Source of the DNA: Deltaproteobacteria bacterium
Lineage (GTDB): Bacteria; Desulfobacterota; Desulfobacteria; Desulfobacterales; B30-G6
Assembly: GCA_019313725.1 (NCBI GenBank)
Contig: JAFDAT010000001.1
Location: 1 to 41,520, forward strand
DNA: 41,520 bases
Direction: 5' to 3'
The notes under the pieces were generated by a model, which did no database searches, was not told where the DNA came from, and saw nothing but the letters and a program-made list of their open reading frames with translations. The translations under genes were made by a program, and so were the position numbers. This document shows positions 23,362-37,597 of this stretch, piece after piece (the first letter of the stretch is position 1; each line of letters begins with the position of its first letter).

Positions 23362-23544
23362 TTAGATGAATTGATGAGACATGACTCTTCAGAAGAACGA
23401 GTATGGATAAATTGACCCCACATGTCAAAGGAAATAGCGTCTAAATATGTCAGGGTTTTATGCCATGCTGCAAAAGCTGTATTCCAGGCAATATATGCCT
23501 GAATGAGGACGAAAAATGTTCTGATTAAACCAAGGCCGCCTGTT

Positions 23545-25183: not shown

Positions 25184-26587
25184 GTGGCAGAATGGTACAC
25201 AAAAAAGCTTGCCGAGTATGCGGTCAACTCGCAGTTCGAAGACTATCCTGCCGAGGTCGTCGAGCGGGCAAAGGTTCTCATTCTCGACCTGATCGGCTGT
25301 ATGTTCGGGGGGTGTCAGACAGGACTGGGAAAAGCCATCGTCAAACCCTTGACATCCATGGGGGGCCAGCCGGAAGCCACCATTGTCGGCGGTGGGGCCA
25401 AGGTGCCGACTATCCAGGCTGCATTTGCCAACGGAACGACAGCCAATGCCCTCGATTATGATGACACCCTGCTGGGCATCGGTCATCCCGGTGCATCGGT
25501 CATTCCGGCGGCGTTGGCAATCGGTGAGTGGAAACACGCCTCAGGCAAAGATGTCCTCAACGCCATTCTGGTGGGTTATGATGTCGGGGATCGAATTGGT
25601 TTGGCTATTCAGCCCAGTTATGAGCGGCTTCAGAACGTCTGGGGTGTCGGCACCTGGCAGACCCTGGGAGCGGCAGCAGCAGCGGCCAGGGTTCTCAATA
25701 TGGATTTAGACAAGACCTTGAACACCTACGGGGTAGCCGGGGCGACGGCACCGCTGCCGAATACCCAGAAATGGGGCTGGGATCTGTCCGAACGCCCGAT
25801 CCATTGGGTCAAGGAACCCACAGGATGGCCTTGCTGGACCGGTACGACGGCAGCCGTTCTTGCAGAAAACGGCTTCATCGGCAACCGCTTTATCCTGGAT
25901 GGTAAAAATGGTTTCTGGATCATGGCCGGATCCGATCAGTGCGATTATGAAAAAATGACCAAGGGCCTGGGAAACGAATATGAAGTAATCGACAATATTG
26001 CCATCAAACCCTATTCATCCTGCCGCTGGCAGCATGCCACACTGGATTGTGTCCAGGAATTGAAGCACGAACACCATCTTTCGCCGGAGTCCATAGAGGC
26101 TGTTGCCGTACACTCTTTCGCATGGGTAAAGACGCATGAAGTTTACAACCCGGCGGACATGGTGGATGCACAATTCTCGATACCCTATACCGTATCCATG
26201 GTGCTTTTAGGTGAACACCCGGGACCTGCCTGGTATACACCGGAAAACATGCAAAGCGATATTGTTGCCCGGATCATGAAAAAAGTGACCGTGGAGACCG
26301 ATTCCGGCATCGATCGGGCCTATTTTGATGAAGACAAGATTTCGGCTCGCGTGAAGATCTCTACGAACAGCGGGGATGCGTTCGAAAAATTCGTCGGAAT
26401 TCCATACGGTGACCCCCGACACCCTATCAGCCAGAGCGATATTGAAGATAAATTTAGAAACCAGGCGTTGTATGTGCTGGGTTCTGAGGATGTTGATAGG
26501 GTCATGGAAGAGATATATGCGTTCGAAAAACTGGAAGATATTTCCGATCTCATGTCGCTTCTCATGGGAAATCCATTGGTAAAATAG
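25184..26587 (+). CDS. MmgE/PrpD-family protein (2-methylcitrate dehydratase-like fold; substrate unknown)
   Basis: 467-aa ORF with a GTG start and SD AGGGAGG. MmgE/PrpD-like N-terminus (YAVNSQFEDYPAEVVERAKVLILDLIGCMFGG...ANGTTANALDYDDT). TAG stop 16 nt before the mttB ATG. Confidence 0.75.
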   Translation: MAEWYTKKLAEYAVNSQFEDYPAEVVERAKVLILDLIGCMFGGCQTGLGKAIVKPLTSMGGQPEATIVGGGAKVPTIQAAFANGTTANALDYDDTLLGIGHPGASVIPAALAIGEWKHASGKDVLNAILVGYDVGDRIGLAIQPSYERLQNVWGVGTWQTLGAAAAAARVLNMDLDKTLNTYGVAGATAPLPNTQKWGWDLSERPIHWVKEPTGWPCWTGTTAAVLAENGFIGNRFILDGKNGFWIMAGSDQCDYEKMTKGLGNEYEVIDNIAIKPYSSCRWQHATLDCVQELKHEHHLSPESIEAVAVHSFAWVKTHEVYNPADMVDAQFSIPYTVSMVLLGEHPGPAWYTPENMQSDIVARIMKKVTVETDSGIDRAYFDEDKISARVKISTNSGDAFEKFVGIPYGDPRHPISQSDIEDKFRNQALYVLGSEDVDRVMEEIYAFEKLEDISDLMSLLMGNPLVK

Positions 26588-26603
26588 ATAGGAGGTAAAA
26601 TTC

Positions 26604-28091
26604 ATGAAACGCAGATTGAAAGCTGGTAAAAACCGCAATTCAGGCTTCAGCCTGAACGTCATGACCGATGATGAGGTTCATGAAGTTCACATGGGCACCC
26701 TGGAAGTGTTGAAGGATGTGGGTATCTTCGTGGAAAGCACGGAAGCCCTAGAGCGTTTTGATGCTGGGGGGTGCGAGGTCGATAAAAAGAACAAGGTGGT
26801 CAAATTCCCCCACTGGGTGGTCGAGGATGCCATTAACGCCGCCCCCGGCGCATATCATGCCTGCGGGCGCAGACCCGAAGACGATGTGCTTCTGGAGGAC
26901 AATCGGGTGACCTTTACCAATTTCGGCGAAGGCATCATGTTCGTGGACCCCTACACCGGGGAACACAGGGAGACAACCAAAGATGATATCGTTAAGGCGT
27001 CCAGAATTATCGATTCCCTGGAAAATATCGAAACCTACGAGCGGGCCATGTGCTCCCACGACAAACCGCCGGAATCCCAGGCCCTGCACAATGCCGAAGC
27101 ATCGCTGACCAACACAACCAAACACCACTGGTTGTGCCCGGTGGACCGTTTTCAGGCCAAGAAAATAACGGAGATGTGCGCCGCCATCGTCGGGGGCAGA
27201 GACGTACTCAAAAAAAGACCGTTGCTCTCTTTTACCACCTGTCCCATCAGCCCCTTGAAACTCCCGGCCCACCATTGCGAAATCGTTATGGAGGCGGCTG
27301 AGAGCTACATGGGGCTCAATGTGGTCGGCATGGCCATGTCGGCGGGCTCCGGCCCGGTACACCTGGCCGGCACGGTGATCATCCAGAATTGCGAGGTTTT
27401 GTCGAGCCTGGTCCTGGCGCAGTTGACCCGCAAGGGAGCACAATTCATCTACGGCAGCTCCACGTGTCCTTTGGATCTGCGCATGGCCACGGCCAGTGTG
27501 GGATCACCCGAGACCGGCATGATCAGCGCGGCGGTAGCACGGCTGGCCCGTTACTACAGCCTGCCCTGCTTCGTCGCCGGTGGGTAGGGCGACAGCAAGC
27601 TGACCGATGCCCAGGCGGGTTTCGAAAAAACCATGACCGGCATGCTTCCCGCATTGGCAGGCGCCAATGTCATCTACGGATTGGGAATGCTGGAAATGGG
27701 CATCACCTTCGACCTGGCACAGCTGGTGTGGGATCACGAAATCGCTGAGATGATTCTGTACGCCATGAAAGGGGTTCCGGTAAACGATACCACCCTTGCC
27801 GTCGATGTCATCAAGGAGATGGGCATCGGCAAGGATTATCTGTCGCATCCCACCACCTTCGAGCACATGCGCTCTCAGTCCCAGGCCCGGCTGATCGACC
27901 GCAGAATGCGCGAAGACTGGGAGGCTGCCGGCAGCACGGATGCCTACAAGCGCTCCCACGACAAGATGATCGACATTCTGGAAACCTATGAACCGCCCAA
28001 GCTTCCGGACGATGTCTTGAAGAACGTCCGTTCCATCGTAGTTGAGGCTGAGAAGGAGTTGGGTGTATATAGCGAAGATAATGAGGAATAA
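26604..28091 (+). CDS. mttB: Trimethylamine:corrinoid methyltransferase (MttB) with one in-frame TAG at codon 328 (candidate pyrrolysine)
   Basis: ORFs 26604..27587 and 27633..28091 are in the same frame and are separated only by TAG 27585-27587. Homology to the two MttB paralogs in this window runs straight across the TAG. The joined length is 495 codons. Strong SD AGGAGGT before ATG 26604. Confidence 0.8.
27585..27587 (+). other. In-frame UAG codon, candidate pyrrolysine recoding site
   Basis: GCC GGT GGG TAG GGC GAC AGC AAG reads A G G * G D S K. The TAG aligns with Ala (AGATDAK) and Cys (GGCTDAK) in the paralogs at 33385..34821 and 36161..37597. Confidence 0.7.
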
Positions 28092-28104
28092 GCAGATAAT
28101 GACA

Positions 28105-28133
28105 TTGACATTTTCACAGGGGCATTGTAAAAA
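28105..28133 (+). promoter_or_regulatory. Putative sigma70-type promoter for the ABC transporter operon
   Basis: TTGACA (28105-28110), 17-nt spacer, TAAAAA (28128-28133). Lies ~130 nt upstream of ATG 28266. Confidence 0.35.
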
Positions 28134-28265
28134 TTTTACTTCATCCCCAGAAACAATTATTCACGTCCTGAGGAATTAACTGCTTCATCAGGAAATGGTG
28201 AATAGTTCGGGTAAAAACCAGTTACATCATCAACTTACATACTCACAAACAGCAAGGAGGAAATC

Positions 28266-30425
28266 ATGCGGGCAAAAAAATTAAACCTATGTGTAGCCAT
28301 TGCAGTTTCACTGATCTTTCTTTTTTCCACGGGCGCACTCGCGGCATCAACGCTTAAACTCGGCGTCATGGGTCCCTTCACCGGTCCATCGGCAAAAACC
28401 GGCGCTGAATTCAAGGGGTCTGTCAAAATGGCCATGGAAAACATCGATTACAAAATCGGTGATTACAAGATAGAACTCGTCTGGATTGACTCCCAGTCAG
28501 ATCCCGCAAAGGCTACAAGCGCCTATGCAGAGGCGGTGGAATCAAAAGGTGTCCAGGTTGCCATGCTGAACTGGCACAGTTCGGTCGCAGCGGCGGTAAT
28601 GGATATAGCGGCCCAGTACAAGGTGCAGCATGTGTTCGGAATGGGCGCGGCTGAGATCGTCAACGAAAAGTACAAATCAGACCCTGAAAAGTACAGTTAC
28701 TGGGCTGCCAAGGGATGGCCAATTCCCGGCGACCTTATCCCGGGTTATGTGGAGAGTGTCAACGCAGCCGTTGCCAGCGGTAAATTCAAACCTGGAAAAA
28801 AAGTAGTCGCCATTTACGGCGAAGAGACCGACTGGGGCCGAAGCGTGGGAGCAGCATTCAAAAAGGGTTTCGAGGCTACCGGATGGAAGATTCTTTCCGA
28901 AGACTACTTCCCCTTCACCCAGACCGATCACTATTCTCTTCTGAGCAAATACAAGAAAGGCGGGGCTGCCGTTCTGGCCGGAACATCCACATCCGCACCT
29001 TCCATCTCGGGTTTTATTAAACAGGCCGATGAGATTGGACTTAAAGCCGTAATCGTTGCCGACGGTCTGGGCTGGAATGCCGACTGGTACAAGATGACCG
29101 GCAATGCTTCAAACCACGTGTTGGACATGATCCCCCGGCTTACCACAAAGGCCGCCCAGGATTGGGCCAAAGCGATAAAGGCTAAATTCGGATACAACCC
29201 GAGTCCTTCGGCATCCGGCCTGTCATACGATTACGCCAATTTCTTCATCAAACTTGCCAAAAGAGCCCTTGAAAAACATGGGAAACTCGACAAGGATTCC
29301 ATCCACGAGGTCGTCATTAGCGAACTCAATACCGGCAAACTGACCTACGGCAAGGCGGACGGCGCCCTTATCATGAATGAGTACAGATATTCAGCGAAAT
29401 CCATACCCGATCCCGTCATTGCCGCGGACGGTTACTTCTTTCCCGTTCTTCAATACATGAACGGAGACAGCAACATCATCTATCCTGATGACTGGAAAAC
29501 AGCCAATTTTTCGGCTAAAGAAAGACGGTATCATTTAGTAAAAACGGTGAGGTCGACCGTAGTCGGCCTCACAGTCAACCATCCCGAAGGAATAAATAAC
29601 CAGCGGTTAAGCGCACGTGTCAACGCCTGGGAACAGATGCGATTATCTTTTCCTATCGGAAAACACAACACACCAAATCACCAAACGGACAGGTGGTTCC
29701 AAATGACTGTAGTGTTAGAAACCAACGAAGTGACCAAACGGTTCGGGGGACTGGTGGCGGTCAACGCTGTCTCCATGCGGGTCAGACAGGGCGAGATCGT
29801 CGGACTGATCGGGCCCAATGGGGCTGGGAAGACAACCCTTCTCAACGCCATAGCAGGTCTCAATCCACCAACATCCGGAACAGTCCGGATGTTCGATGAG
29901 GATACAACCGGCCTGCCGCCGGAAAAAATGTGCCGGAGGGGACTTTCAAGGACCTTCCAGATCCCGCGACCCTTTCCGAAAATGTCGGTTCTTGAAAATA
30001 TCATGACAGCGGCCACCTTCGGCAATAAAAAAAAGCTGCCCGACATTACCGGACACTGCAGGGAACTGATGGAATTTGTGGAATTCCCTCTGGCGGAAAC
30101 CGTCATTTCGGAAAACCTCAACACGGTACAACTGAAACGGCTCGACCTTGCAAGAGCCCTGGCAAGTTCTCCGAAACTACTGTTTCTCGATGAACTTGCG
30201 GCTGGCTTAACTGAGGGTGAGCTGAACGATATCATCAAAATAATAAAAAAAATTCATGACAGGGACATCTCCATTTTGATGGTCGAGCACATTATGCACC
30301 TTATCATGAGTGTATGCGATCGGCTCGTCTGCATCCAGTTTGGAATAAAAATCGCCGAGGGGCCCACCCAGGAGGTGGCAAACGACCCCAAGGTGTCCGA
30401 GGCCTATCTAGGCTCGAGCCATTGA
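28266..30425 (+). CDS. Uninterrupted 719-codon frame: LivJ/K-type periplasmic binding protein module (aa 1-~420, signal peptide) reading through a ~60-aa linker into a LivG-type ATPase
   Basis: Signal peptide MRAKKLNLCVAIAVSLIFLFSTGALA. LivJ-like block LKLGVMGPFTGPSAKTGAEF...IELVWIDSQSDPAKA. There is no in-frame stop before 30423. Both other frames stop at 29516-29518 and 29536-29538, just before a hairpin at 29547-29572, so a probable 1-nt indel has removed the real stop. Confidence 0.6.
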   Translation: MRAKKLNLCVAIAVSLIFLFSTGALAASTLKLGVMGPFTGPSAKTGAEFKGSVKMAMENIDYKIGDYKIELVWIDSQSDPAKATSAYAEAVESKGVQVAMLNWHSSVAAAVMDIAAQYKVQHVFGMGAAEIVNEKYKSDPEKYSYWAAKGWPIPGDLIPGYVESVNAAVASGKFKPGKKVVAIYGEETDWGRSVGAAFKKGFEATGWKILSEDYFPFTQTDHYSLLSKYKKGGAAVLAGTSTSAPSISGFIKQADEIGLKAVIVADGLGWNADWYKMTGNASNHVLDMIPRLTTKAAQDWAKAIKAKFGYNPSPSASGLSYDYANFFIKLAKRALEKHGKLDKDSIHEVVISELNTGKLTYGKADGALIMNEYRYSAKSIPDPVIAADGYFFPVLQYMNGDSNIIYPDDWKTANFSAKERRYHLVKTVRSTVVGLTVNHPEGINNQRLSARVNAWEQMRLSFPIGKHNTPNHQTDRWFQMTVVLETNEVTKRFGGLVAVNAVSMRVRQGEIVGLIGPNGAGKTTLLNAIAGLNPPTSGTVRMFDEDTTGLPPEKMCRRGLSRTFQIPRPFPKMSVLENIMTAATFGNKKKLPDITGHCRELMEFVEFPLAETVISENLNTVQLKRLDLARALASSPKLLFLDELAAGLTEGELNDIIKIIKKIHDRDISILMVEHIMHLIMSVCDRLVCIQFGIKIAEGPTQEVANDPKVSEAYLGSSH
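29703..30425 (+). CDS. Branched-chain-amino-acid-type (HAAT) ABC transporter ATP-binding protein, LivG-like
   Basis: The internal ATG at 29703 has its own SD AGGTGG (29691-29696). Walker A GPNGAGKTT, signature/Walker B region LLFLDELAAGL. Confidence 0.8.
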   Translation: MTVVLETNEVTKRFGGLVAVNAVSMRVRQGEIVGLIGPNGAGKTTLLNAIAGLNPPTSGTVRMFDEDTTGLPPEKMCRRGLSRTFQIPRPFPKMSVLENIMTAATFGNKKKLPDITGHCRELMEFVEFPLAETVISENLNTVQLKRLDLARALASSPKLLFLDELAAGLTEGELNDIIKIIKKIHDRDISILMVEHIMHLIMSVCDRLVCIQFGIKIAEGPTQEVANDPKVSEAYLGSSH

Positions 30426-30485
30426 AATGTATGATAGGTGCAGGGAGTATACTCCCTTATCATCCTTTATCATCCGGAGGATAGA

Positions 30486-31193
30486 ATGCTGCTGGAAGTA
30501 AAAAATATCAACGCCGGCTACGGATTTCTGCAGATCTTAAGAGATGTATCGTTCAATATCGACCAGGGCGAATACGCCTGTGTAATAGGGCCGAACGGTG
30601 CCGGAAAAAGCACAACAATGAAAACCATAGCAGGACTTTTGAGCCCCATGAGCGGCGAGATAATTTTCAACGGTAAAAACATTGCCGGGCTACCGGGCAA
30701 CCAGGTCGCCCGGCTAGGGATAGGCTACATTTCAGAAGATATGAATCTCTTTACCAACATGACCGTTCAAGAAAACCTTTACATGGGCGCGTATGTGATC
30801 AAAGAGAAGGCTCTTAAGAACGACAGGCTCGATTTCGTATACAACCTCTTTACCCGGCTGAAAAATCGCAAAGACCAGTTAGCCGGAACAATGAGCGGCG
30901 GAGAGCGCAAGATGCTGGCCATCGGCAGGGGTCTTATGGCAAACCCGAAACTCCTTCTGGTAGACGAACCGTCATTCGGACTGGCACCACAGCTGATGGA
31001 AAACGTTTTTGACAATCTCGACATTTTAAAAGAGGCTGGTGTTACCATTCTCCTGGTGGAGCAGAATGTGACCAAAGCGCTGCAGGTTACCACGAGGGGT
31101 TATGTGATGGAAAACGGGAAAATCTTCATGAAGGGGCTGAGTTCGGATCTTGCAGATGACCCCCATGTAAGAAAAGTTTTTCTAGGGGTTTAA
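30486..31193 (+). CDS. HAAT ABC transporter ATP-binding protein, LivF-like
   Basis: ATG 30486 is preceded by GGAGG. Walker A GPNGAGKST, signature MSGGERKM, Walker B LLLVDEPS. The ORF-track start at 30438 lacks an RBS. Confidence 0.8.
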   Translation: MLLEVKNINAGYGFLQILRDVSFNIDQGEYACVIGPNGAGKSTTMKTIAGLLSPMSGEIIFNGKNIAGLPGNQVARLGIGYISEDMNLFTNMTVQENLYMGAYVIKEKALKNDRLDFVYNLFTRLKNRKDQLAGTMSGGERKMLAIGRGLMANPKLLLVDEPSFGLAPQLMENVFDNLDILKEAGVTILLVEQNVTKALQVTTRGYVMENGKIFMKGLSSDLADDPHVRKVFLGV

Positions 31194-31218
31194 GAAAAAT
31201 GGCGGAGGGCTTTTTGTT

Positions 31219-32247: not shown

Positions 32248-32267
32248 GTCTCTCTAAGGATGGTTAA

Positions 32268-33299
32268 ATGAAAACAAACGACTCTAATATGGAATCAGGA
32301 TTGGCAGACAGGATCATGGACAGGCTTTGTCTCACACCGGCAGCGGTTGCCGGAATTATTTTGCTGTTTGTCATTCCTTTTATCCCGCCCTTCAACCAGC
32401 AATACATGATCCGGTGGCTGGTCGCCGCTGCTCTCATAGGCGCCAATGCAATTGCATTTGACTTTACCATCGGCTTTATCAACATTGTAAATTTCGGATA
32501 CTACGCCTTTCTCGGCTTCGGTGGTTACACTTCGGCTATCCTTGCGGTAAACCTGGGACTGTCGCCATGGATCGGCATGATTATCGGTGCCCTCTTTTCA
32601 GGCGTCCTTGGATTGCTGACCGGATTGCTGACCCTGCGCCTCAGAGGGATATTCGCCGCCTGTATGACGTGGTTTCTGGGCCTGGCCATGATGGGGTTGA
32701 TCACAAAAATGGTGTGGCTCACACGCGGCCCACTGGGACTGCGGTGCCCCCAGTTATTCGAAACGTCATCCAATCTCCCGTACTACTACCTGATTTTGTC
32801 CCTGTTAATTGTCATCTATATCTCTACCAAGTGGGTGACAAGATCCAACATGGGTCTGGCTTTCAAGGCTATCGGGCAGAACATGGAGGCCGCCAGAACA
32901 TCGGGAATCAATCCTGTTTTCTACAGAATTGTCAACTTTACACTCTCCTGCACCATCGCGGGGTTGCTGGGAGGATTCTATGCCCACTACTACGGGGTTT
33001 TGACCCCTGAACTGCTGCACACTACCAAAACGGTAGAAGTTCTGGCCGTGGCCTATATCGGTGGACGGGGGAGCCTCTGGGGAGGTGCTTTTATTGCCTT
33101 TCCGTTCATTATTACAATGGAGCTCATACGTTCTTCTCTGTCTGAACTACCAGGACTCAACCTGATCATCTACGGTCTCATGCTGATGTTGGTCATGATT
33201 TACTATCCAGGTGGTTTTGCTGAGTTTTTCAACACCTATCTTGCAAAACCAAAAAACCGGTTCCTGCGTTACTTTTTAAGCGGCATCAAGGATTCTTGA
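32268..33299 (+). CDS. HAAT ABC transporter permease, LivM-like
   Basis: 343-aa polytopic ORF with the LivM-type block LLTLRLRGIFAACMTWFLG. Confidence 0.75.
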   Translation: MKTNDSNMESGLADRIMDRLCLTPAAVAGIILLFVIPFIPPFNQQYMIRWLVAAALIGANAIAFDFTIGFINIVNFGYYAFLGFGGYTSAILAVNLGLSPWIGMIIGALFSGVLGLLTGLLTLRLRGIFAACMTWFLGLAMMGLITKMVWLTRGPLGLRCPQLFETSSNLPYYYLILSLLIVIYISTKWVTRSNMGLAFKAIGQNMEAARTSGINPVFYRIVNFTLSCTIAGLLGGFYAHYYGVLTPELLHTTKTVEVLAVAYIGGRGSLWGGAFIAFPFIITMELIRSSLSELPGLNLIIYGLMLMLVMIYYPGGFAEFFNTYLAKPKNRFLRYFLSGIKDS

Positions 33300-33384
33300 T
33301 ACCCGCAAGCATAACGGACAATTTAAAAAAATATTCCCGGGACATCGGGATCTATTATCAATGATTCAGCCAAAGGAGTACAAT

Positions 33385-34821
33385 ATGGGTATTACCACCG
33401 ATGAACTTTACTTCAAGCCGAAACTCCGGATACTCAGCGATGATCAACTCAAAAAGATCGAAATGGCCGTTTTTGAAGTGCTCGAACGCACCGGCGTTAA
33501 ACTCACCCATCCCAAGGCACGGGATATCCTCAGCGGGGCCGGTGCAAAAGTGGAGGGTGATCGGATTCGGATACCGGGATGGATGGTGGAAGAGGCTATC
33601 CGCAAGACGCCTTCGCGCCTGGTTCTGGGAAACCGTAAAGGCGAACGTGCCGTGGTTCTGGAAGGCGACAAGAGCTGGTTCGGCCCTAGTCTTGACTGCA
33701 TCGATTACCTGGATCCCGTAACCAACGAACGCATGCGCTTTACCAGCGACCATTGCCGTATTTCGGCCACAGTGGCCGATTACTGCGACAATTTTGACTG
33801 GGTAATGACCATCGGCATGGCTGATGACCAACCTGCCGACATTGCCGACCGGGTCGTTGCCCGTCAGACCATGACCTATTGTGAAAAGCCGCTGGTCGTC
33901 TGCTGCAAGGACACCAACAGCATGCGCGACATCTATGAAATGGCGCTTACCATCTGCGGCGGCAAGGAAAAGTTTGACCAGGCCCCCATCGTGGCCCACT
34001 ATTCTGAACCTATTTCTCCGCTCCTCTACTACGATCCGGCTGTGGACAAGATGATCTATTCCGTGGAAAACGACATCCCCCTGATCAATTTTCCGTGTGT
34101 TCAGTCCAGCGGCACGGCACCAGCCACCCTGGCAGGCGCCATCATTCAGGGGGCGGCCGAATCCATCAGCGGTGCCGTCCTGGCCCAGGCCATCAAGCCT
34201 GGAGCACCCTTTGTTTTCGGTGCTTTTGTGACCGTCATGGACATGAAAACCACCGTGTTTTCCTACGGCGCCAGCGAAATGAGCATCATGGTCGGGGCCC
34301 TGGCCCAATTGGCCCAGCATTGGAACATACCATTCTATGGTACTGCCGGTGCTACGGATGCCAAGTTTCCAGATGCCCAGGCAGCTGCCGAGGCCACCCA
34401 GCAGATCATGACCGCCGCCACCGTCGGATCAGGTCTGGTTCACGACTGCAGCAGCTGGATCGATCACGGCTCGGTGGTTTCGCCGGGTTTTATGGTGCTG
34501 GTCAATGAAATTCTCGGAAACGTCAAGCAGTTTATGAATGGCATGCCGGTAACCGACGACAGCATGGCTCTGGATATCATCGATTCCGTCGGGCCGGGAG
34601 GCAATTACCTGATGGAGCAGCACACCCTGGACAATTTCCGCAATGTTCGCTACTCCACCCTGTTTGAGCGCCAGATCCGGCAGGAATGGGAAGATGCCGG
34701 CTCTCAAACTTTTGAAGACCGGTTAAGGGAGCACACCGAAAAAGCCATGGCCCACACACCGGCACCATTGCCGGATGATGTGGTAAAAGAGCTGGATACC
34801 ATGCAGAAGCACTGGAAATAA
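33385..34821 (+). CDS. Non-pyrrolysine MttB-superfamily methyltransferase, paralog A (probable quaternary-amine:corrinoid methyltransferase)
   Basis: 478 aa from ATG 33385 (SD AAGGAG). Collinear, without gaps by eye, with the 478-aa paralog at 36161..37597. Ala occupies the column of the mttB TAG. Confidence 0.75.
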   Translation: MGITTDELYFKPKLRILSDDQLKKIEMAVFEVLERTGVKLTHPKARDILSGAGAKVEGDRIRIPGWMVEEAIRKTPSRLVLGNRKGERAVVLEGDKSWFGPSLDCIDYLDPVTNERMRFTSDHCRISATVADYCDNFDWVMTIGMADDQPADIADRVVARQTMTYCEKPLVVCCKDTNSMRDIYEMALTICGGKEKFDQAPIVAHYSEPISPLLYYDPAVDKMIYSVENDIPLINFPCVQSSGTAPATLAGAIIQGAAESISGAVLAQAIKPGAPFVFGAFVTVMDMKTTVFSYGASEMSIMVGALAQLAQHWNIPFYGTAGATDAKFPDAQAAAEATQQIMTAATVGSGLVHDCSSWIDHGSVVSPGFMVLVNEILGNVKQFMNGMPVTDDSMALDIIDSVGPGGNYLMEQHTLDNFRNVRYSTLFERQIRQEWEDAGSQTFEDRLREHTEKAMAHTPAPLPDDVVKELDTMQKHWK

Positions 34822-34822
34822 T

Positions 34823-34856
34823 AAAAAAGGCCGGGCCACAGGCCCGGCCTTTTTTA
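34823..34856 (+). terminator. Rho-independent terminator (bidirectional-looking)
   Basis: aaaaaaGGCCGGGCCacaGGCCCGGCCtttttt immediately after the paralog A stop. Confidence 0.8.
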
Positions 34857-34875
34857 TTATGGAGGGAGTGGTCGG

Positions 34876-36060
34876 ATGAAAATTACGGCTGTGCGGGCAA
34901 CACCGGTCAACATTCCTTTGGAGGCACCTTTTTACTGGTCGGTGGGAATCTATCCGGGCACCTCCAAGACAATTATTGAAGTCGAAACGGATGAAGGTCT
35001 TGTGGGGCTGGGGGAGTCCCCGTCCTGGGACTGCGCCGAGGTGATCAACCGCCATATGGGCCCCCTGTTGATCGGATGTGACCCCTTTGATATCGTCGGT
35101 TGTGAAAGAAAATGTGTGCCAGAATGGTGCGTAGTCCAGAACACCGACGATGCCTCTGTCGTCAAAGCGTTTGGTGGTATTGAAATAGCGCTTTGGGATA
35201 TTCGTGGCAAGGCCTGGAACAAGCCCTTGTATGCATTGCTCGGGGGAGCCGTGCGCAAGGATATTCCGTTTACGGAATATTTTTGCTACAGGCTCGAAAA
35301 AGACGGGTGCGGGGGTGAAATGACCGCTGAAGCTGTGGCCGATTACTGCCAAAACATGCAGGAGCAACACGGCTCCACCATGTTTGAAGGCAAGTTGAGC
35401 CTCGGTGATCCCTTCCTGGAAACGGCCACGGTCAAACTGCTGCGCGAAAGGCTCGGCGATAAGGCGATGATCCGCCTGGATGCCAATATGTCCTGGTCTC
35501 TATCCACCGCGCGGCAGATTCTTCGGGAAATTGAACCCTATAATATCCGCAACTATGAAGACCCGGTCGCTACTTTTGAGGAAATGGCCCAACTTCGCCG
35601 GCATTCGGCTATCCCCTTTTCAACACACATTCCTGATCTGCGCAGGGCGGTTGCCCTGGGAACGCCCGACAGCATTGTTACCAACTTTGCGGTGCTCGGG
35701 GGAATCCGCCGAACAATACGATTTATCGGCGCATGCGAAACCATGGGTGTCGGATTCTGGTGTTACAGTGGAGATGCCGGGATCTGTACGGCTGCCTATC
35801 TGCACATGGTTGCCACCACCGAATGGATGCACGAGCCCAGCCAGGCCCTCTTGCGCTGGCAGGTCGATGATGTCATCGAGGAGGGTCCGTTCAAACCGGT
35901 CAATAACCATGTTCCGGTGCCTGAAGGACCAGGTTTGGGTGTCACCCTGGCCCCCAAGGCCTTAAAACGCTGTCATGAACGTTTTGTCAACGACGGACCC
36001 ATTAATCACTTTTATGATCCCAATCATCCCGGGCGTATGCGTCGATTGCCCCTTGACTGA
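34876..36060 (+). CDS. Enolase-superfamily protein (mandelate racemase / muconate lactonizing enzyme type)
   Basis: 394-aa ORF with an MR/MLE N-terminal capping domain (MKITAVRATPVNIPLEAPFYWS...IIEVETDEGLVGLGES) and barrel blocks (IRLDANMSWS, YEDPV). SD GGAGGGAG. Confidence 0.75.
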   Translation: MKITAVRATPVNIPLEAPFYWSVGIYPGTSKTIIEVETDEGLVGLGESPSWDCAEVINRHMGPLLIGCDPFDIVGCERKCVPEWCVVQNTDDASVVKAFGGIEIALWDIRGKAWNKPLYALLGGAVRKDIPFTEYFCYRLEKDGCGGEMTAEAVADYCQNMQEQHGSTMFEGKLSLGDPFLETATVKLLRERLGDKAMIRLDANMSWSLSTARQILREIEPYNIRNYEDPVATFEEMAQLRRHSAIPFSTHIPDLRRAVALGTPDSIVTNFAVLGGIRRTIRFIGACETMGVGFWCYSGDAGICTAAYLHMVATTEWMHEPSQALLRWQVDDVIEEGPFKPVNNHVPVPEGPGLGVTLAPKALKRCHERFVNDGPINHFYDPNHPGRMRRLPLD

Positions 36061-36160
36061 TACTTAGACCAAAAACACACAAAGGACACGAAGATTTTTT
36101 CTTAACGTCTTTGTAGTTGTTTTTTTTCATTGACATGCCCCAATAAGGGAGGACAACACC

Positions 36161-37597
36161 ATGGATATCCAGCTGCCCGAAATAAATTTCAAGCCCCGGC
36201 TGAATGTAATTAATGCGGAACAGATCAAACAGATCCATACAGCAAGCCTGGAGGTCCTCGAACGGATCGGCGTTAAGATGACGCATCCACGGGCTGTGGA
36301 ACTGTTGGAGAGTGCCGGTGCCAATGTGGATGGAGACAGGGTCCGTATTCCTTCATGGATGGTTGAAGATGCCATCCGCAAGGCCCCTTCCCGGGTGGTG
36401 CTGGGAAAACGGAATGGTGAGCGGTCGGTGTTTATAGAGGCGGGTAAAACCTGGTTTGGGCCCAGCCTGGATTGTATTGACTATCTGGACCCGATGACCG
36501 ATGAACGCAAACGCTTTACCAGCGAACACTGCCGGGTCAGCGCGACCATCGCCGATGCCATGCCCAACTTCGACTGGTCCATGATCATCGGCATGGCCGA
36601 CGATCAACCGCCTGACATCGCCGATCGGGTGATTGTTCGTCAGGCCCTGACCTACTGCGAAAAACCGCTGGTTTTTTGCTGCAAAGATACCAATAGCGAG
36701 CGTGATATCTACGAAATGGCTCTGTTGATCTGCGGCGGCAAGGAGAACTTTGAAAAGGCACCGACCATCGTCCAGTACTCCGAACCGATTTCACCTCTGG
36801 AATATTATGACCCGGCCGTGGACAAGATGCTCTTTTCGGTCGAACATGGTATTCCCCTGATAAATTTTCCCGCGCCCCAGGCCTGTGGCTCGGCTCCGGC
36901 AACGCTTGCCGGAACCATCGTGCAGGGCAGTGCGGAATCTTTAAGCGGACTGGTACTGGCTCAGGCTGCCCGGCCGGGTGCTGCTTTTATCTACGGGGCC
37001 TTCACCACCATAATGGACATGAAAACATCCGTTTTTTCATACGGGGCGTCTGAAATGAGTCTGATGGTCGCTGCCATGGCCCAGATGGCGGAACATTACA
37101 ATCTGCCTTTTTTCGGCACCGGCGGTTGTACGGATGCCAAATTCTGTGACCCTCAGGCCGCCGTCGAAGCGACCTTTCAATGTTTTAGCTCCGCCGCCGT
37201 TGGAACCGGTCTGATACATGACTGCAGCAGCTGGATGGATCACGGCTCTTTAGTGTCGCCGGCCTTCATGGTGCTGGTCAACGAAATTTTGCACAACGTA
37301 AAACAATATATGAACGGTATACCGGTTAGCGCAGAGACACTGGCTATAGATGTCATCGAGCGTGTCGGGCCGGGTGGACACTATCTGCAGGATGAGCATA
37401 CCTTGGCGAATTTTAACAAGGTGCGTTATTCCGAGCTGTTTGAACGCACGATCCGCCAGGAATGGGAAGCCGACGGTTCCAAAAGCTTTGAAGACCGGCT
37501 GCGGCAAATGACGGTAAAGGCCATGGCTCACGAACCGGCGGCCTTGCCGGATGATATCGTTAAAGAAATTGATACGATGCAGCAGCACTGGAAATAA
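36161..37597 (+). CDS. Non-pyrrolysine MttB-superfamily methyltransferase, paralog B
   Basis: 478-aa ORF with SD AGGGAGG. Roughly two-thirds to three-quarters identical to paralog A by eye. Cys occupies the column of the mttB TAG. Confidence 0.75.
   Translation: MDIQLPEINFKPRLNVINAEQIKQIHTASLEVLERIGVKMTHPRAVELLESAGANVDGDRVRIPSWMVEDAIRKAPSRVVLGKRNGERSVFIEAGKTWFGPSLDCIDYLDPMTDERKRFTSEHCRVSATIADAMPNFDWSMIIGMADDQPPDIADRVIVRQALTYCEKPLVFCCKDTNSERDIYEMALLICGGKENFEKAPTIVQYSEPISPLEYYDPAVDKMLFSVEHGIPLINFPAPQACGSAPATLAGTIVQGSAESLSGLVLAQAARPGAAFIYGAFTTIMDMKTSVFSYGASEMSLMVAAMAQMAEHYNLPFFGTGGCTDAKFCDPQAAVEATFQCFSSAAVGTGLIHDCSSWMDHGSLVSPAFMVLVNEILHNVKQYMNGIPVSAETLAIDVIERVGPGGHYLQDEHTLANFNKVRYSELFERTIRQEWEADGSKSFEDRLRQMTVKAMAHEPAALPDDIVKEIDTMQQHWK

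What the first reader, a model, noticed from the sequence alone, without database searches (positions are those of the whole stretch)
25184..37597. MttB x3 + enolase-superfamily racemase-like gene + PrpD-family gene + Liv-type ABC importer: candidate anaerobic betaine racemisation/demethylation locus
Seen in sequence, one same-strand 12.4-kb block contains:
- a PrpD/MmgE-family protein
- Pyl-type mttB
- a five-component HAAT (LivJGFHM-like) ABC importer
- non-Pyl MttB paralog A, followed by a terminator
- an MR/MLE enolase-superfamily protein
- non-Pyl MttB paralog B, followed by a terminator

Established knowledge:
- Characterised non-Pyl MttB members demethylate glycine betaine (MtgB), proline betaine (MtpB), carnitine (MtcB) and gamma-butyrobetaine (MtyB).
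- In aerobes, the enolase-superfamily enzyme HpbD racemises or epimerises proline betaine and 4-hydroxyproline betaine before oxygenase-dependent demethylation.
- The MmgE/PrpD family includes dehydratases, decarboxylases and an epimerase.

Inference:
- The MR/MLE gene sandwiched between two corrinoid-dependent methyltransferase genes suggests an O2-independent counterpart. The substrate would be a chiral quaternary amine (proline-betaine-like or another betaine) that is stereo-inverted and demethylated.
- Uptake appears to use an amino-acid-type importer rather than a ProU/Opu-type importer.
- I do not know of a described MR/MLE-MttB pairing.
Basis: partly seen in the sequence, partly recalled or inferred. 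Interest (0 to 1): 0.75.

Follow-up and report, generated by a model that had tools for sequence, protein, structure and literature searches.

The report
Methyl-betaine breakdown genes with odd enolase
A sulfate-reducer-type gene block joins vitamin-B12-type methyl-removing enzymes to an uncharacterised enolase-family enzyme, and this pairing recurs in hundreds of genomes, where it appears to replace the oxygen-dependent first steps of proline-betaine breakdown.

Summary
All nine genes lie on the + strand at 25184-37597. They include a pyrrolysine-type mttB with an in-frame TAG and a PYLIS element.

The MR/MLE-MttB linkage is real and conserved. In 80 species-level genomes carrying this MR/MLE clade, an MttB gene is directly adjacent in 38 and within 3 kb in 48. 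An N-demethylase-family gene lies within 3 kb in 57. These genomes include Desulfobacterota, Chloroflexota and aerobic Alpha- and Gammaproteobacteria.

In Proteobacteria the operon is LysR | MttB - MR/MLE - N-demethylase. That demethylase is often about 74% identical to genes annotated HpbA/StcD (N-methyl-L-proline demethylase). The non-Pyl MttB clade of the window also sits next to ornithine-cyclodeaminase-family genes, and once next to a Cys/Cys proline-racemase-family gene. A proline-betaine-type substrate is therefore the best reading.

The MR/MLE is not HpbD-like. Its invariant active-site set is E-x-K, D, E, H, N, Y. Racemase is favoured over dehydratase but unproven. The MR/MLE is accessory: only 6 of 43 loci of the window's MttB clade carry it.

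PrpD-like plus Pyl-MttB forms a separate recurrent module. I found no literature on either pairing.

The parts
25184..26587 (+). MmgE/PrpD-family protein of unknown function. It is the first gene of the block and belongs to a clade that recurs next to MttB/MtmB genes.
   Evidence: It has Pfam MmgE_PrpD_N and MmgE_PrpD_C domains. It is far below the PrpD equivalog cutoffs. The best PDB relatives are IDS epimerase and cis-aconitate decarboxylase at about 96 bits. In 5 of 5 examined contexts it lies adjacent to MttB or MtmB genes.
26604..28091 (+). Pyrrolysine-type trimethylamine:corrinoid methyltransferase MttB, with an in-frame UAG at 27585-27587.
   Evidence: TIGR02369 scores 684 bits against a cutoff of 525. 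The in-frame TAG is shown. It is 90% identical to the Pyl-MttB in the PrpD-like locus L086.
27585..27684 (+). PYLIS element (pyrrolysine insertion sequence of mttB), starting at the UAG.
   Evidence: Rfam RF02510 matches at 76.8 bits against a gathering score of 38, E = 4e-14.
28266..29520 (+). Periplasmic substrate-binding protein (Peripla_BP_6, LivJ-like) of the importer. It has no stop codon and reads through into livG.
   Evidence: Pfam result. It is 87% identical to the SBP beside the MR/MLE module of Desulfobacula (L010), and only 50% identical to the SBP of the PrpD-like module (L086). The stop codon of relative L017 is absent. No informative solved relative was found.
29704..30425 (+). 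LivG-type ABC ATPase, in the same ORF as the binding protein (28266-30425).
   Evidence: ABC_tran and BCA_ABC_TP_C domains; LivG is the best NCBIfam hit.
30438..31193 (+). LivF-type ABC ATPase.
   Evidence: NCBIfam LivF is the best hit at 237 bits.
31219..32247 (+). LivH/UrtB-type permease.
   Evidence: Pfam BPD_transp_2.
32268..33299 (+). LivM/UrtC-type permease.
   Evidence: Pfam BPD_transp_2.
33385..34821 (+). Non-Pyl MttB paralog A ('class D' clade). The ORF opens at 33361, but the likely start is 33385. It is a lineage-specific extra copy.
   Evidence: PF06253 scores 309 bits; TIGR02369 scores 354 bits, below the 525 cutoff. It is 69% identical to paralog B. The gene is called from Met9 in contig L001. 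It is absent between livM and the MR/MLE gene in close relatives L017 and L092. It lacks Tyr97 and Arg312 of MtgB.
34826..34856 (.). G+C-rich 9-bp-stem hairpin flanked by an A-run and a T-run. It is a bidirectional intrinsic-terminator-like element between MttB_A and the MR/MLE gene.
   Evidence: The sequence AAAAAAGGCCGGGCCACAGGCCCGGCCTTTTTT is shown. It is also listed by the scan.
34876..36060 (+). Enolase-superfamily (MR/MLE) enzyme of an uncharacterised, highly conserved clade. Its active-site set is E171-x-K173, D202, E228, H251, N270, Y297.
   Evidence: Pfam result. The set is invariant in 199-201 of 201 sequences. The residues lie at or directly after the C-terminal ends of predicted barrel strands. 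The nearest structures are uncharacterised EFI targets.
36161..37597 (+). Non-Pyl MttB paralog B ('class D' clade). It is the ancestral partner downstream of the MR/MLE gene.
   Evidence: PF06253 scores 315 bits; TIGR02369 scores 371 bits, below the 525 cutoff. The MR-MttB_B order is kept in L092, L093, L105 and L111.
8034..10052 (+). AcsV/RamA-like corrinoid reductive activase. It lies outside the finding but is the only corrinoid-system accessory gene in the window.
   Evidence: NCBIfam corr_regen_AcsV scores 448 bits, below its cutoff of 800; RamA subfamily scores 100 bits.

Best explanation
The block is a composite locus for O2-independent catabolism of N-methylated amines. It was assembled from two recurrent modules.

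**Module M (28266-37597).**
- A Liv-type ABC importer takes up an N,N-dimethylated cyclic amino-acid betaine of the proline-betaine or hydroxyproline-betaine type.
- Two paralogous non-Pyl MttB-family methyltransferases ('class D') pass its N-methyl group(s) to a corrinoid protein encoded elsewhere. The AcsV/RamA-like activase upstream would keep that corrinoid protein reduced.
- The enolase-superfamily enzyme between the two MttB genes binds the substrate carboxylate on a divalent metal held by D202, E228 and H251.
- It removes the C2 proton with Lys173.
- It then most likely returns a proton from the opposite face through Tyr297, oriented by Asn270. This interconverts 2-epimers or enantiomers of the betaine or its N-methyl product, so that stereospecific demethylases can use both.
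- It is an accessory, substrate-range-widening enzyme. It is functionally analogous to HpbD of the aerobic pathway but not a member of that group.

**Module P (25184-28091).** A PrpD-like enzyme plus pyrrolysine-type MttB is a separate, also recurrent pairing. It acts on another methylated amine or on trimethylamine.

**What is shown and what is inferred.**
- Shown: gene identities, the in-frame UAG and PYLIS element, the conserved linkages, and the active-site residues.
- Inferred: the substrate class, the direction of flow, the Lys/Tyr proton transfer, and the use of a distal corrinoid protein.
For: **Linkage.** Among 80 GTDB species genomes with this MR/MLE clade, an MttB gene is directly adjacent on the same strand in 38 and within 3 kb in 48. 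MttB, a DMGDH-like or a StcD-like gene is adjacent in 49. Some N-demethylase family member is within 3 kb in 57. This holds across Desulfobacterota, Chloroflexota, Alpha- and Gammaproteobacteria.

**Three different MttB clades pair with one conserved MR/MLE.**
- The MR/MLE is 65-90% identical across these genomes.
- The MttB partners are class D plus two alphaproteobacterial MtgB-paralog types.
- The MR/MLE substrate is therefore the constant element.

**Proline signature.**
- The StcD-like gene directly after the MR/MLE gene in L082 is about 74% identical to genes annotated stcD or hpbA, N-methyl-L-proline demethylase; the StcD-like genes at that position in the other loci score 900-1224 bits against it, self-score 1555.
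- In Roseivivax such a gene sits in the canonical operon with a Rieske oxygenase and its reductase.
- hpbA is genetically required for growth on N-methyl-L-proline (PMC3950512).
- Class D MttB has an OCD/mu-crystallin-family gene directly upstream in 11 loci. In L147 it has a Cys/Cys Pro_racemase-family gene (406 bits) directly downstream, the position the MR/MLE holds elsewhere.
- The Pontibacterium locus has a Rieske oxygenase, a BCCT transporter, DAO, RidA, a P5C-reductase-like gene and a StcD-like gene around the MR/MLE.
- Most loci carry two N-demethylase genes of whatever family, as expected for a dimethyl quaternary nitrogen.

**Accessory role.**
- Only 6 of 43 class D loci with at least 1.5 kb on both sides carry the MR/MLE.
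- L136 and L142 match the Desulfobacula-type cluster exactly, minus the MR/MLE.
- This parallels hpbD, which is needed only for D-proline betaine.

**Aerobes.** Aerobic roseobacters are proposed to use a split MtgBCD cobalamin methyltransferase, with MtgC and MtgD shown to be essential and encoded away from mtgB in R. pomeroyi. This explains the absence of a corrinoid gene in these operons (PMC12478193).

**Active site.** K173, D202, E228, H251, N270 and Y297 are invariant. They lie at or directly after the C-terminal ends of predicted barrel strands. Tyr297 occupies the position of the R-face base His297 of mandelate racemase. A Lys/Tyr two-base pair is the known solution in alanine racemase (my own knowledge).
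Against: - No biochemical data exist for any member of this MR/MLE clade, of class D MttB, or of the PrpD-like clade.
- The canonical second base is missing: there is no beta6 Lys and no beta7 His / beta6 Asp dyad. This is more typical of one-base eliminases.
- A sister clade (56-59% identical, same E-x-K, His and Tyr) is coupled to Ldh_2-family and OCD-family oxidoreductases. That pattern suggests an imino- or keto-acid product, meaning dehydration.
- The nearest structures are GlucD-like. The best NCBIfam hit, though weak, is cis-3-hydroxy-L-proline dehydratase.
- Class D MttB lacks Tyr97 and Arg312. Arg312 is conserved in all characterised acidic-betaine methyltransferases (PMC13080624).
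- The window itself has no HpbA/StcD, OCD, DAO or corrinoid gene.
- A strong terminator separates MttB_A from the MR/MLE gene.
- Some contexts point to glycine or threonine metabolism instead: Tdh-Kbl beside the MR/MLE, and gcvTHP plus sdaA in Paracoccus.
Confidence: 0.45

Rival explanations
1. The substrate class is the same (hydroxylated proline-type or another beta-hydroxy alpha-amino acid, N-methylated or not), but the MR/MLE is a one-base beta-eliminase (dehydratase). Lys173 removes the alpha-proton, and Tyr297/Asn270 protonate a beta-hydroxyl leaving group. The product is a 2-enamine or 2-imino acid such as delta1-pyrroline-2-carboxylate. OCD-, Ldh_2- or P5CR-type reductases then reduce it, or RidA hydrolyses it. 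This feeds a hydroxylated analogue into the core demethylation pathway.
For: - Only one canonical base is retained.
- The sister clade is operonic with Ldh_2-family and OCD-family oxidoreductases.
- RidA and a P5C-reductase-like gene follow the MR/MLE gene in Pontibacterium.
- An OCD-family gene lies close to the MR/MLE in L035, L058 and L063.
- The best NCBIfam hit is cis-3-hydroxy-L-proline dehydratase at 87.5 bits.
- 4mgg is among the structural neighbours.
- An accessory distribution also fits a side-entry enzyme.
Against: - The NCBIfam score is far below the cutoff of 500.
- The commonest operon (MttB - MR/MLE - HpbA/DMGDH-like) contains no imine reductase.
- In L147 a Cys/Cys (racemase/epimerase-type) proline-racemase-family gene takes the MR/MLE's place.
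- OCD is linked to class D MttB even where the MR/MLE is absent.
- A quaternary betaine cannot tautomerise to an imine after dehydration.
Confidence: 0.25
2. The MR/MLE (and likewise the PrpD-like enzyme) acts on a beta-hydroxy or beta-ammonio carboxylate betaine of the carnitine type. It eliminates water or a methylated amine. The resulting aldehyde is oxidised by aldehyde:ferredoxin oxidoreductase, and the released or retained methylamine is demethylated by the MttB enzymes.
For: - AFOR and a 4Fe-4S protein lie in the Desulfobacterota MR/MLE clusters.
- PrpD-like clusters carry Fe-ADH, AFOR or Aldedh, BCCT and, once, a BKACE gene.
- A Pyl-type TMA methyltransferase is present in the window.
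- Class D MttB lacks the carboxylate-binding Arg312.
Against: - Nothing in the proteobacterial operons points to carnitine.
- The demethylase after the MR/MLE gene is HpbA/StcD-like.
- The OCD and proline-racemase neighbours do not fit this reading.
- A Pyl-MttB is adjacent to the MR/MLE module only in this lineage.
Confidence: 0.08
3. The MR/MLE is a sugar-acid or other acid dehydratase, or a catalytically degenerate GlucDRP-like protein. Its position next to MttB genes then has no pathway meaning.
For: - The nearest solved relatives are GlucD-like proteins co-crystallised with tartrate or other acids.
- JGI annotates homologs as glucarate dehydratase.
- The canonical KxK motif and His/Asp dyad are lost.
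- A TRAP transporter lies next to it in one genome.
Against: - Adjacency to N-demethylase genes of three unrelated families is seen in 49 of 80 genomes from several phyla.
- No sugar-acid genes are among the recurrent neighbour gene families.
- Conservation of 65-90% identity with an invariant active-site set argues for a selected catalytic function.
Confidence: 0.05

Closest known systems
Hpb pathway of Pelagibaca bermudensis, Paracoccus denitrificans and Rhodobacter sphaeroides. HpbD is an enolase-superfamily 4-hydroxyproline-betaine 2-epimerase / proline-betaine racemase. [quoted passage not shown]
   Same: - The operon logic is the same: a LysR regulator, a first demethylase, an enolase-superfamily enzyme and a second demethylase.
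- An HpbA/StcD-type gene (74% identical to annotated hpbA/stcD) follows the MR/MLE gene in many proteobacterial loci.
- The racemase has an accessory character in both systems.
   Different: - The first demethylase is a cobalamin-type MttB-family enzyme rather than an O2-dependent Rieske oxygenase.
- The MR/MLE is a different clade. It has E-x-K, D, E, H, N, Y in place of the two catalytic Lys (beta2 and beta6) and D/E/D. No HpbD structure that I could recognise appears among the top 60 sequence hits or the top 50 structural hits.
- The window uses a Liv-type importer, not a ProU-type importer.
MtpB/MtqC/MtqA proline-betaine:corrinoid methyltransferase system of Eubacterium limosum, and MtgB/MtgC/MtgA of Desulfitobacterium hafniense (the MttB superfamily; PMC13080624, PMC8604678).
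   Same: They are non-Pyl PF06253 methyltransferases in anaerobes. Related class D loci carry a corrinoid protein and a pterin-binding methyltransferase next to the MttB gene.
   Different: - Class D lacks MtgB Tyr97 and Arg312. Arg312 is reported to be conserved in all characterised members.
- It is only about 27% identical to D. hafniense MtgB.
- No enolase-superfamily partner is described for these systems.
- I could not compare class D directly with the MtpB sequence.
Split MtgBCD glycine-betaine methyltransferase of aerobic roseobacters and Sinorhizobium meliloti (PMC12478193).
   Same: The alphaproteobacterial MttB next to the MR/MLE is a 45-60% identical paralog. It keeps Tyr97, Arg312 and His348 and likewise has no adjacent corrinoid gene.
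   Different: - The motif around the carboxylate-binding Arg is LPLRC rather than LPFRT.
- The gene is operonic with the MR/MLE and an N-methyl-amino-acid demethylase rather than with MtgC/MtgD/MetF.
cis-3-Hydroxy-L-proline dehydratase of Labrenzia aggregata (enolase superfamily; probably PDB 4MGG), together with the uncharacterised EFI targets 4DYE/2OQH, 3VDG/3VFC, 4IT1 and 3VC5.
   Same: The fold is the same. They are the nearest sequence and structure neighbours, with TM-scores of 0.84-0.87 for 4dye, 3vfc and 3vc5 and 0.73-0.76 for 4mgg. Genome context likewise points to proline-type substrates.
   Different: Identity is at most 31%. 4dye keeps KxK, Asn, Asp and His, whereas the window's clade has E-x-K, His, Asn and Tyr.
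Pyrrolysine-dependent MttB/MttC trimethylamine methyltransferase of Methanosarcina and of Pyl-decoding Deltaproteobacteria.
   Same: The gene at 26604-28091 meets the equivalog cutoff, has the UAG at the conserved position, and has a PYLIS element.
   Different: No mttC, pylT or pylSBCD gene is present in the window. The gene is preceded by a PrpD-like gene, a pairing also seen in L086.

Membership tests
Enolase superfamily (MR/MLE) | An N-terminal capping domain plus a C-terminal barrel domain (Pfam MR_MLE_N and MR_MLE_C). | tested here: met
   PF02746 scores 56 bits and PF13378 scores 121 bits. The AF2 model has pTM 0.80, and the top Foldseek hits are all enolase-superfamily members.
Enolase superfamily (MR/MLE) | Metal ligands at the ends of barrel strands 3, 4 and 5 (Asp, Glu, and Asp/Glu/Asn). 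| tested here: inconclusive
   D202 and E228 are present and invariant. The third position is His251 (200 of 201 sequences), which to my knowledge is unusual for the superfamily.
HpbD-type betaine racemase/epimerase (MLE subgroup) | A two-Lys acid/base pair: KxK at the end of strand 2 and Lys at the end of strand 6. | tested here: not met
   The clade has E171-x-K173. Asn270 occupies the position of MLE Lys273. This is invariant in 201 sequences.
HpbD-type betaine racemase/epimerase (MLE subgroup) | Sequence or structure clustering with HpbD. | tested here: not met
   The top PDB sequence and Foldseek hits are 4dye, 2oqh, 3vdg, 4it1 and 3vc5. No entry that I recognise as HpbD (2PMQ, 4H2H, from memory) is among the best 60 or best 50. 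No direct alignment to HpbD was possible.
HpbD-type betaine racemase/epimerase (MLE subgroup) | Racemase or 2-epimerase activity on proline betaine or hydroxyproline betaine. | not testable with these tools
   This needs an enzyme assay.
Mandelate racemase / glucarate dehydratase subgroups | A His (strand 7) / Asp (strand 6) dyad as the second base. | tested here: not met
   Tyr297 and Asn270 occupy these positions.
MttB superfamily, non-Pyl quaternary-amine methyltransferases (MtgB, MtpB, MtcB, MtyB, MthB) | A PF06253 domain without an in-frame UAG. | tested here: met
   MttB_A scores 309 bits and MttB_B 315 bits. Both ORFs are uninterrupted, with Ala or Cys at the Pyl position.
MttB superfamily, non-Pyl quaternary-amine methyltransferases (MtgB, MtpB, MtcB, MtyB, MthB) | The substrate-binding motif of MtgB: aromatic Tyr97 and Phe356, with Arg312 and His348 for the carboxylate. 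Arg312 is conserved in all characterised members (PMC13080624). | tested here: not met
   In class D, Tyr97 is replaced by Leu, Arg312 by Phe or Tyr, and Phe356 by Gly. Only the His is kept (HD motif). This rests on an alignment, not a structure.
MttB superfamily, non-Pyl quaternary-amine methyltransferases (MtgB, MtpB, MtcB, MtyB, MthB) | A cognate corrinoid protein and a methyl-corrinoid:THF methyltransferase encoded nearby. | tested here: not met
   None is present in the 41.5-kb window. They are present beside class D genes in about 20 related loci.
Pyrrolysine-type trimethylamine methyltransferase MttB | Equivalog-level similarity, an in-frame UAG at the conserved site, and a PYLIS element. 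| tested here: met
   TIGR02369 scores 684 bits against a cutoff of 525. The TAG lies at 27585-27587. PYLIS_3 scores 76.8 bits.
Pyrrolysine-type trimethylamine methyltransferase MttB | The Pyl decoding machinery (pylT, pylS, pylBCD) is present in the organism. | not testable with these tools
   No tRNA gene is found in the window, and the rest of the genome is not available.
MmgE/PrpD family | Both MmgE/PrpD domains are present. | tested here: met
   PF03972 scores 186 bits and PF19305 scores 110 bits.
MmgE/PrpD family | The protein is a 2-methylcitrate dehydratase (PrpD equivalog). | tested here: not met
   The best equivalog score is 45 bits against a cutoff of 950. The contexts are methylamine methyltransferase loci, not prp operons.
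HAAT (Liv-type) ABC importer | A Peripla_BP_6 binding protein, two BPD_transp_2 permeases, and LivG- and LivF-type ATPases. | tested here: met
   All five components are present. The binding protein and LivG are fused in one ORF.
Proline-betaine catabolic cluster (Hpb/Stc type) | An HpbA/StcD N-methyl-L-proline demethylase lies in the same cluster. | tested here: inconclusive
   None is present in the window. One is present directly after the MR/MLE gene in 11 of 80 related loci, and within 3 kb in 15. The L082 copy is about 74% identical to annotated hpbA/stcD genes.

The most novel reading that the evidence does not exclude
This MR/MLE clade would be a previously unrecognised kind of enolase-superfamily 1,1-proton-transfer enzyme. 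It would use a Lys/Tyr base pair and a His-containing metal site.

Together with cobalamin-dependent MttB paralogs, it would form an oxygen-independent route from (hydroxy)proline betaine to (hydroxy)proline. That route would replace the Rieske oxygenase step in strict anaerobes and also in many aerobic marine and rhizosphere Proteobacteria.

The two class D MttB paralogs, which lack both pyrrolysine and the canonical carboxylate-binding Arg, would carry out both demethylations. This would include demethylation of the tertiary amine N-methylproline, a reaction type so far thought to need pyrrolysine or a flavoenzyme.

The PrpD-like/MttB pairing would be a second, independent example of a proton-abstracting enzyme recruited to a corrinoid-dependent demethylation pathway.
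Probability: 0.18. Interest if true: 0.8.

Novelty: new variant of a known kind. Interest (0 to 1): 0.66.

Why it matters
- **Carbon, nitrogen and methane cycling.** Quaternary-amine osmolytes are major carbon, nitrogen and methyl sources in sediments, oceans, guts and rhizospheres. Their fate determines trimethylamine and methane production.
- **Gaps in current knowledge.** The known MttB-superfamily substrates cover only a few of the many clades. The only known betaine racemase (HpbD) belongs to an oxygen-dependent pathway.
- **What this locus offers.** The locus and its relatives in at least 264 species genomes give a concrete, testable candidate for an O2-independent proline-betaine-type pathway.
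  - It assigns a context-based function to a large, highly conserved enolase-superfamily clade with an unprecedented active-site set.
  - It defines a new MttB clade with a different substrate-binding motif.
  - It shows that aerobic Proteobacteria may use a cobalamin enzyme where textbooks place a Rieske oxygenase.
- **A second target.** It also flags a PrpD-like clade tied to methylamine methyltransferases as a further unexplored enzyme.

Tried and rejected
1. **Ergothioneine/hercynine idea.** I considered that the upstream HAL-like and urocanase-like genes release TMA for the Pyl-MttB. I rejected this. They pass the HutH and HutU equivalog cutoffs, score far below the thiourocanate-hydratase models, and come with a HutC-like GntR-family regulator (below its cutoff), so they are ordinary histidine utilisation genes.
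2. **Inferring the ligand from solved binding proteins.** The best hit is only 50 bits, which is uninformative.
3. **NCBIfam naming of neighbour families.** I scanned AP_endonuc_2, DAO, OCD, DMGDH-like, StcD-like, AFOR and P5CR-like proteins. None reaches an equivalog cutoff.
4. **F356-to-Gly change as a substrate marker.** I considered this change in MR-adjacent alphaproteobacterial MttB as a marker. I rejected it because bona fide alphaproteobacterial MtgB also has Gly there.
5. **Class D MttB as an obligate partner of the MR/MLE.** The reciprocal metagenome scan rejects this (6 of 43 loci).
6. **Extending the contig beyond the window.** Exact-protein look-up returned only short contigs.
7. 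**Literature searches for MttB together with mandelate racemase or enolase superfamily.** No papers were found. Broader searches found nothing on the pairing.
8. **Direct comparison with HpbD and MtpB.** This was not possible because neither sequence could be obtained with the tools.
9. I accepted them only because all published catalytic residue numbers were reproduced.
10. **Riboswitch or tRNA-Pyl in the window.** None was found.

Full report
**1. What is in the window**

- A MmgE/PrpD-family protein lies at 25184-26587.
- An mttB lies at 26604-28091.
  - It has one in-frame TAG at 27585-27587 within the motif VAGG*GDSK.
  - It passes the NCBIfam equivalog cutoff for trimethylamine:corrinoid methyltransferase (684 against 525 bits).
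  - A PYLIS element starts exactly at the TAG (RF02510, 76.8 against 38 bits).
- A five-component Liv-type ABC importer spans 28266-33299.
- Two non-Pyl MttB paralogs lie at 33385-34821 and 36161-37597. They are 69% identical. Both fall below the TMA-methyltransferase cutoff.
- An MR_MLE_N/MR_MLE_C protein lies between them at 34876-36060.

- The binding protein has lost its stop codon and runs in frame into livG, giving a 719-aa ORF.
- A 9-bp G+C stem with flanking A- and T-runs sits between MttB_A and the MR/MLE gene, 20 nt before its start.
- No corrinoid protein, no methyl-corrinoid:THF methyltransferase and no tRNA is encoded in the window.
- An AcsV/RamA-like activase lies at 8034-10052.

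By nearest relatives, the organism is a member of the Desulfobacteraceae.

**2. The MR/MLE enzyme itself**

It belongs to a large and unusually conserved clade.
- The best 120 database clusters are 68-90% identical.
- 264 stretches in the GTDB species-representative genomes encode it.
- The nearest solved structures are uncharacterised structural-genomics targets of the GlucD-like group (4dye/2oqh, 3vdg/3vfc, 4it1, 3vc5). Sequence E-values are 1e-40 to 1e-31, identity is 26-31%, and TM-scores are 0.84-0.87.
- No NCBIfam model comes near its cutoff. The best is cis-3-hydroxy-L-proline dehydratase at 87 against 500 bits.

I aligned 20 family members with 4dye and with mandelate racemase, muconate-lactonizing enzyme and glucarate dehydratase.
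- They reproduce all published catalytic residue numbers, which is why I accepted them.

The family has these residues:

| Family residue | Equivalent position in reference enzymes |
|---|---|
| E171-x-K173 | the KxK motif |
| D202 and E228 | the first two metal ligands |
| His251 | the third ligand (GlucD Asn289) |
| Asn270 | MR Asp270 / MLE Lys273 / GlucD Asp313 |
| Tyr297 | MR His297 / GlucD His339 |

- These residues are invariant in 199-201 of 201 sequences.
- In an AF2 model (pLDDT 77, pTM 0.80) each lies at or directly after the C-terminal end of a predicted barrel strand.
- The enzyme is therefore a true enolase-superfamily member with one canonical base (Lys173).
- It has neither the Lys/Lys pair of HpbD-type racemases nor the His/Asp dyad of the MR and GlucD types.

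**3. Is the MR/MLE-MttB linkage conserved?**

Yes. I fetched 80 species-level loci with up to 10-kb flanks. I searched their six-frame ORFs with the window's proteins and with neighbour families.

| Neighbour of the MR/MLE gene | Loci (of 80) |
|---|---|
| MttB-family ORF directly adjacent, same strand | 38 |
| MttB-family ORF within 3 kb | 48 |
| MttB, DMGDH-like or StcD-like gene adjacent | 49 |
| Some N-demethylase family within 3 kb | 57 |

Several of the remaining loci are truncated contigs, or have such genes 4-5 kb away.

The taxa are 32 Desulfobacterota, 6 Chloroflexota, 30 Alphaproteobacteria (Ruegeria, Leisingera, Shimia, Mesorhizobium, Tistlia and others), 3 Gammaproteobacteria, and others.

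RefSeq-annotated plasmids show the same operon: LysR | 'trimethylamine methyltransferase family protein' - MR/MLE - 'FAD-dependent oxidoreductase' - GlxA regulator.

Three very different MttB clades are involved.
- One is the window's 'class D' clade, with motifs GPSLDC, LPFFGTAG, HDCS and DHGS.
- The other two are alphaproteobacterial types. They are 45-60% identical paralogs of the bona fide glycine-betaine MtgB loci of S. meliloti and P. methylovorus. They carry LPLRC instead of LPFRT around the carboxylate-binding Arg.

The conserved element is the MR/MLE, and the demethylases vary. [quoted passage not shown] The lack of a corrinoid gene in these aerobic operons is therefore expected.

**4. 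The reciprocal test**

I scanned metagenome contigs with an alignment of class D MttB proteins.
- Only 6 of 43 loci with at least 1.5 kb on both sides carry the MR/MLE.
- Two loci (L136, L142) match the Desulfobacula-type cluster (MtgB-like MttB - AP_endonuc_2 - [MR/MLE] - class D MttB - AFOR - DAO) with the MR/MLE cleanly absent.

The MR/MLE therefore depends on demethylase contexts, but not the other way round. It is an accessory enzyme.

**5. What substrate?**

Several independent lines point to proline-type betaines.
- (a) StcD-like genes follow the MR/MLE gene in 11-15 loci.
  - The L082 copy is about 74% identical to genes annotated stcD or hpbA, N-methyl-L-proline demethylase; the copies in the other loci score 900-1224 bits against it.
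  - In Roseivivax a 78%-identical gene sits in the canonical aerobic operon with a Rieske oxygenase and its reductase.
  - hpbA is genetically required for growth on N-methyl-L-proline and proline betaine (PMC3950512).
- (b) Class D MttB has proline-type neighbours.
  - An ornithine-cyclodeaminase/mu-crystallin-family gene lies directly upstream in 11 loci.
  - DAO-family genes lie next to it in several others.
  - In L147 a Pro_racemase-family gene with both catalytic Cys motifs (MCGH, SPCGT) lies directly downstream, where the MR/MLE sits elsewhere.
- (c) In Pontibacterium the MR/MLE is flanked by DAO, a TRAP transporter, RidA and a P5C-reductase-like gene. A Stc2-like Rieske oxygenase, a BCCT transporter and a StcD-like gene lie nearby.
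- (d) Most loci carry two N-demethylases of whatever family. This fits a dimethyl quaternary ring nitrogen better than a trimethylammonium group.
- (e) The architecture LysR + demethylase 1 + enolase-superfamily enzyme + HpbA mirrors the Hpb cluster.

Evidence against:
- Class D lacks MtgB Tyr97 and Arg312. Arg312 is conserved in MtgB, MtcB, MtyB, MtpB and MthB (PMC13080624).
- A few contexts suggest glycine or threonine metabolism: Tdh-Kbl next to the MR/MLE in one group of related MAGs, and gcvTHP plus sdaA in Paracoccus.

**6. Which reaction?**

For racemase/2-epimerase:
- The Hpb analogy.
- The accessory distribution. hpbD is needed only for the D-isomer.
- The replacement by a Cys/Cys proline-racemase-family gene in L147.
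- Tyr297 stands where the second base of MR stands. Alanine racemase is a precedent for a Lys/Tyr pair (my own knowledge).

For dehydratase:
- Only one canonical base is present.
- A sister clade (56-59% identical, same E-x-K, His and Tyr) is operonic with Ldh_2-family and OCD-family oxidoreductases and peptide/opine-type ABC transporters.
- RidA and reductases appear in some loci.
- The nearest solved relatives are GlucD-like rather than known racemases.

I put epimerase/racemase on a proline-type N-methyl substrate at about 0.45. I put beta-elimination on a hydroxylated analogue at about 0.25. The rest is split among carnitine-type chemistry, unrelated function, and the unknown.

**7. The PrpD-like gene and the Pyl-MttB are a second module**

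Homologs of the PrpD-like protein (56-99% identical; Anaerolineae, Desulfobacula, Desulfobacter, Bacillota) lie next to MttB or MtmB genes in all five contexts examined.
- DMGDH - PrpD-like - Liv ABC - Pyl-MttB - ETF (L086).
- MttB - AFOR - PrpD-like - Fe-ADH (L087/L088).
- MttB ... PrpD-like - MtmB - corrinoid protein - MtmB (the P0142 contig).
- Aldedh - MttB - PrpD-like - Fe-ADH - BCCT (L089).
- MttB - PrpD-like - Fe-ADH - AFOR (L090).

The window's binding protein is 87% identical to the one beside the Desulfobacula MR/MLE module. It is only 50% identical to the one in L086. The importer therefore belongs to the MR/MLE module, and the window fuses two modules. MttB_A is a lineage-specific extra copy, since close relatives have livM followed directly by the MR/MLE gene (L017, L092).

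**8. Comparison with what is known, and novelty**

The locus is a member of the known kind 'corrinoid-dependent methylated-amine demethylation locus'. It works like the Hpb/Stc proline-betaine pathway, with the O2-dependent step replaced.
- It is not an HpbD system, because defining catalytic residues were tested and not met.
- The non-Pyl paralogs are not demonstrably MtpB- or MtgB-like.
- Searches of 8 million papers and preprints found no description of an MttB-MR/MLE or MttB-PrpD pairing.

I rate it a new variant of a known kind, with interest of about 0.66. A conserved, uncharacterised enzyme clade with an unusual active site is tied to an ecologically important process, and it is directly testable. 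However, the substrate and the reaction remain inferred.

Noticed in passing
window 28266-30425: The periplasmic binding protein and the LivG ATPase form one uninterrupted 719-aa ORF. The TAA that ends the binding protein in the 89%-identical relative L017 is absent. About 65 codons of former intergenic sequence, including a stem-loop around 29544-29575, are read through. This could be a real fusion, a programmed event or an assembly error.
   Followed up: partly
window 25184-26587, and loci L086-L090: The PrpD-like clade is adjacent to MttB or MtmB methyltransferase genes in 5 of 5 contexts. It is often followed by an Fe-alcohol dehydrogenase and an aldehyde-oxidising enzyme, with a BCCT transporter and, once, a BKACE gene. 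This is a second undescribed pairing of a proton-abstracting enzyme with corrinoid methyltransferases. The substrate may be carnitine- or choline-like.
   Followed up: partly
window 34826-34856: A perfect 9-bp GGCCGGGCC/GGCCCGGCC hairpin with an A-run upstream and a T-run downstream lies immediately after MttB_A, 20 nt before the MR/MLE start. It could split the block into two transcripts or act as an attenuator.
   Followed up: partly
window 188-10052: This stretch holds a histidine utilisation set: a HutC-like GntR-family regulator (123 bits, below its 220 cutoff), HutU (675 aa, long N-terminus) and HutH, the last two above equivalog cutoffs. It is followed by a fused 4Fe-4S/molybdopterin oxidoreductase of unclear specificity (5389-7893) and an AcsV/RamA-like corrinoid activase (8034-10052).
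   Followed up: partly
window 10000-25000: This stretch has lower G+C (42-47% against 50-57% in the flanks). It carries polyphosphate-related genes: PPK2 (12326-13327), a Na/Pi-cotransporter-like protein (14130-15959, not profile-scanned), a CHAD-domain protein (18521-20071) and a PPK1-like protein (20068-22236, not profile-scanned). It also has a ParA-like ATPase and a histidine-phosphatase-like gene (17017-17601, not profile-scanned).
   Followed up: no
window 15987-16940 (- strand); repeat at 16581-16886: A universal-stress-protein domain is preceded by about 160 residues of extremely basic Arg/Lys/Pro repeats ([10 protein letters not shown]...). They are encoded by a 15-nt tandem repeat with 20 copies and 82% matches. 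Other frames of the same DNA give Lys/Glu/Ala or Phe/Leu repeats.
   Followed up: partly
L147 7329-8480 (and the L143 fragment): A Cys/Cys proline-racemase-family gene lies directly downstream of a class D MttB gene. This is the position the enolase-superfamily gene holds in other loci, and it looks like a non-orthologous replacement.
   Followed up: partly
L173, L174, L175 (Terrarubrum, Phyllobacterium and Fuscovulum plasmids): A sister clade of the MR/MLE (47-59% identical) is operonic with Ldh_2-family oxidoreductase, ornithine-cyclodeaminase-family protein, a PhnD/SsuA-like binding protein and peptide/opine-type ABC transporters. The two members I aligned (56-59% identical) keep E-x-K, His and Tyr. 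No demethylase is present. In Phyllobacterium a second, unrelated MR/MLE gene precedes it.
   Followed up: partly
L078 (Anaerolineales MAG), whole 20-kb locus: Eight MttB-family genes, three corrinoid-protein genes and one MtgA-like gene surround the MR/MLE gene. This is a dense methyltransferase island.
   Followed up: no
L084/L085 16588-19422 and L011 16216-19041: A 942-aa fusion of DUF1638 with hydantoinase-A/ASKHA domains lies at the end of the Desulfobacula MR/MLE cluster. DUF1638 also sits beside B12-binding proteins in the alphaproteobacterial MtgB loci (L176, L178). It may be an alternative corrinoid reactivation factor.
   Followed up: no
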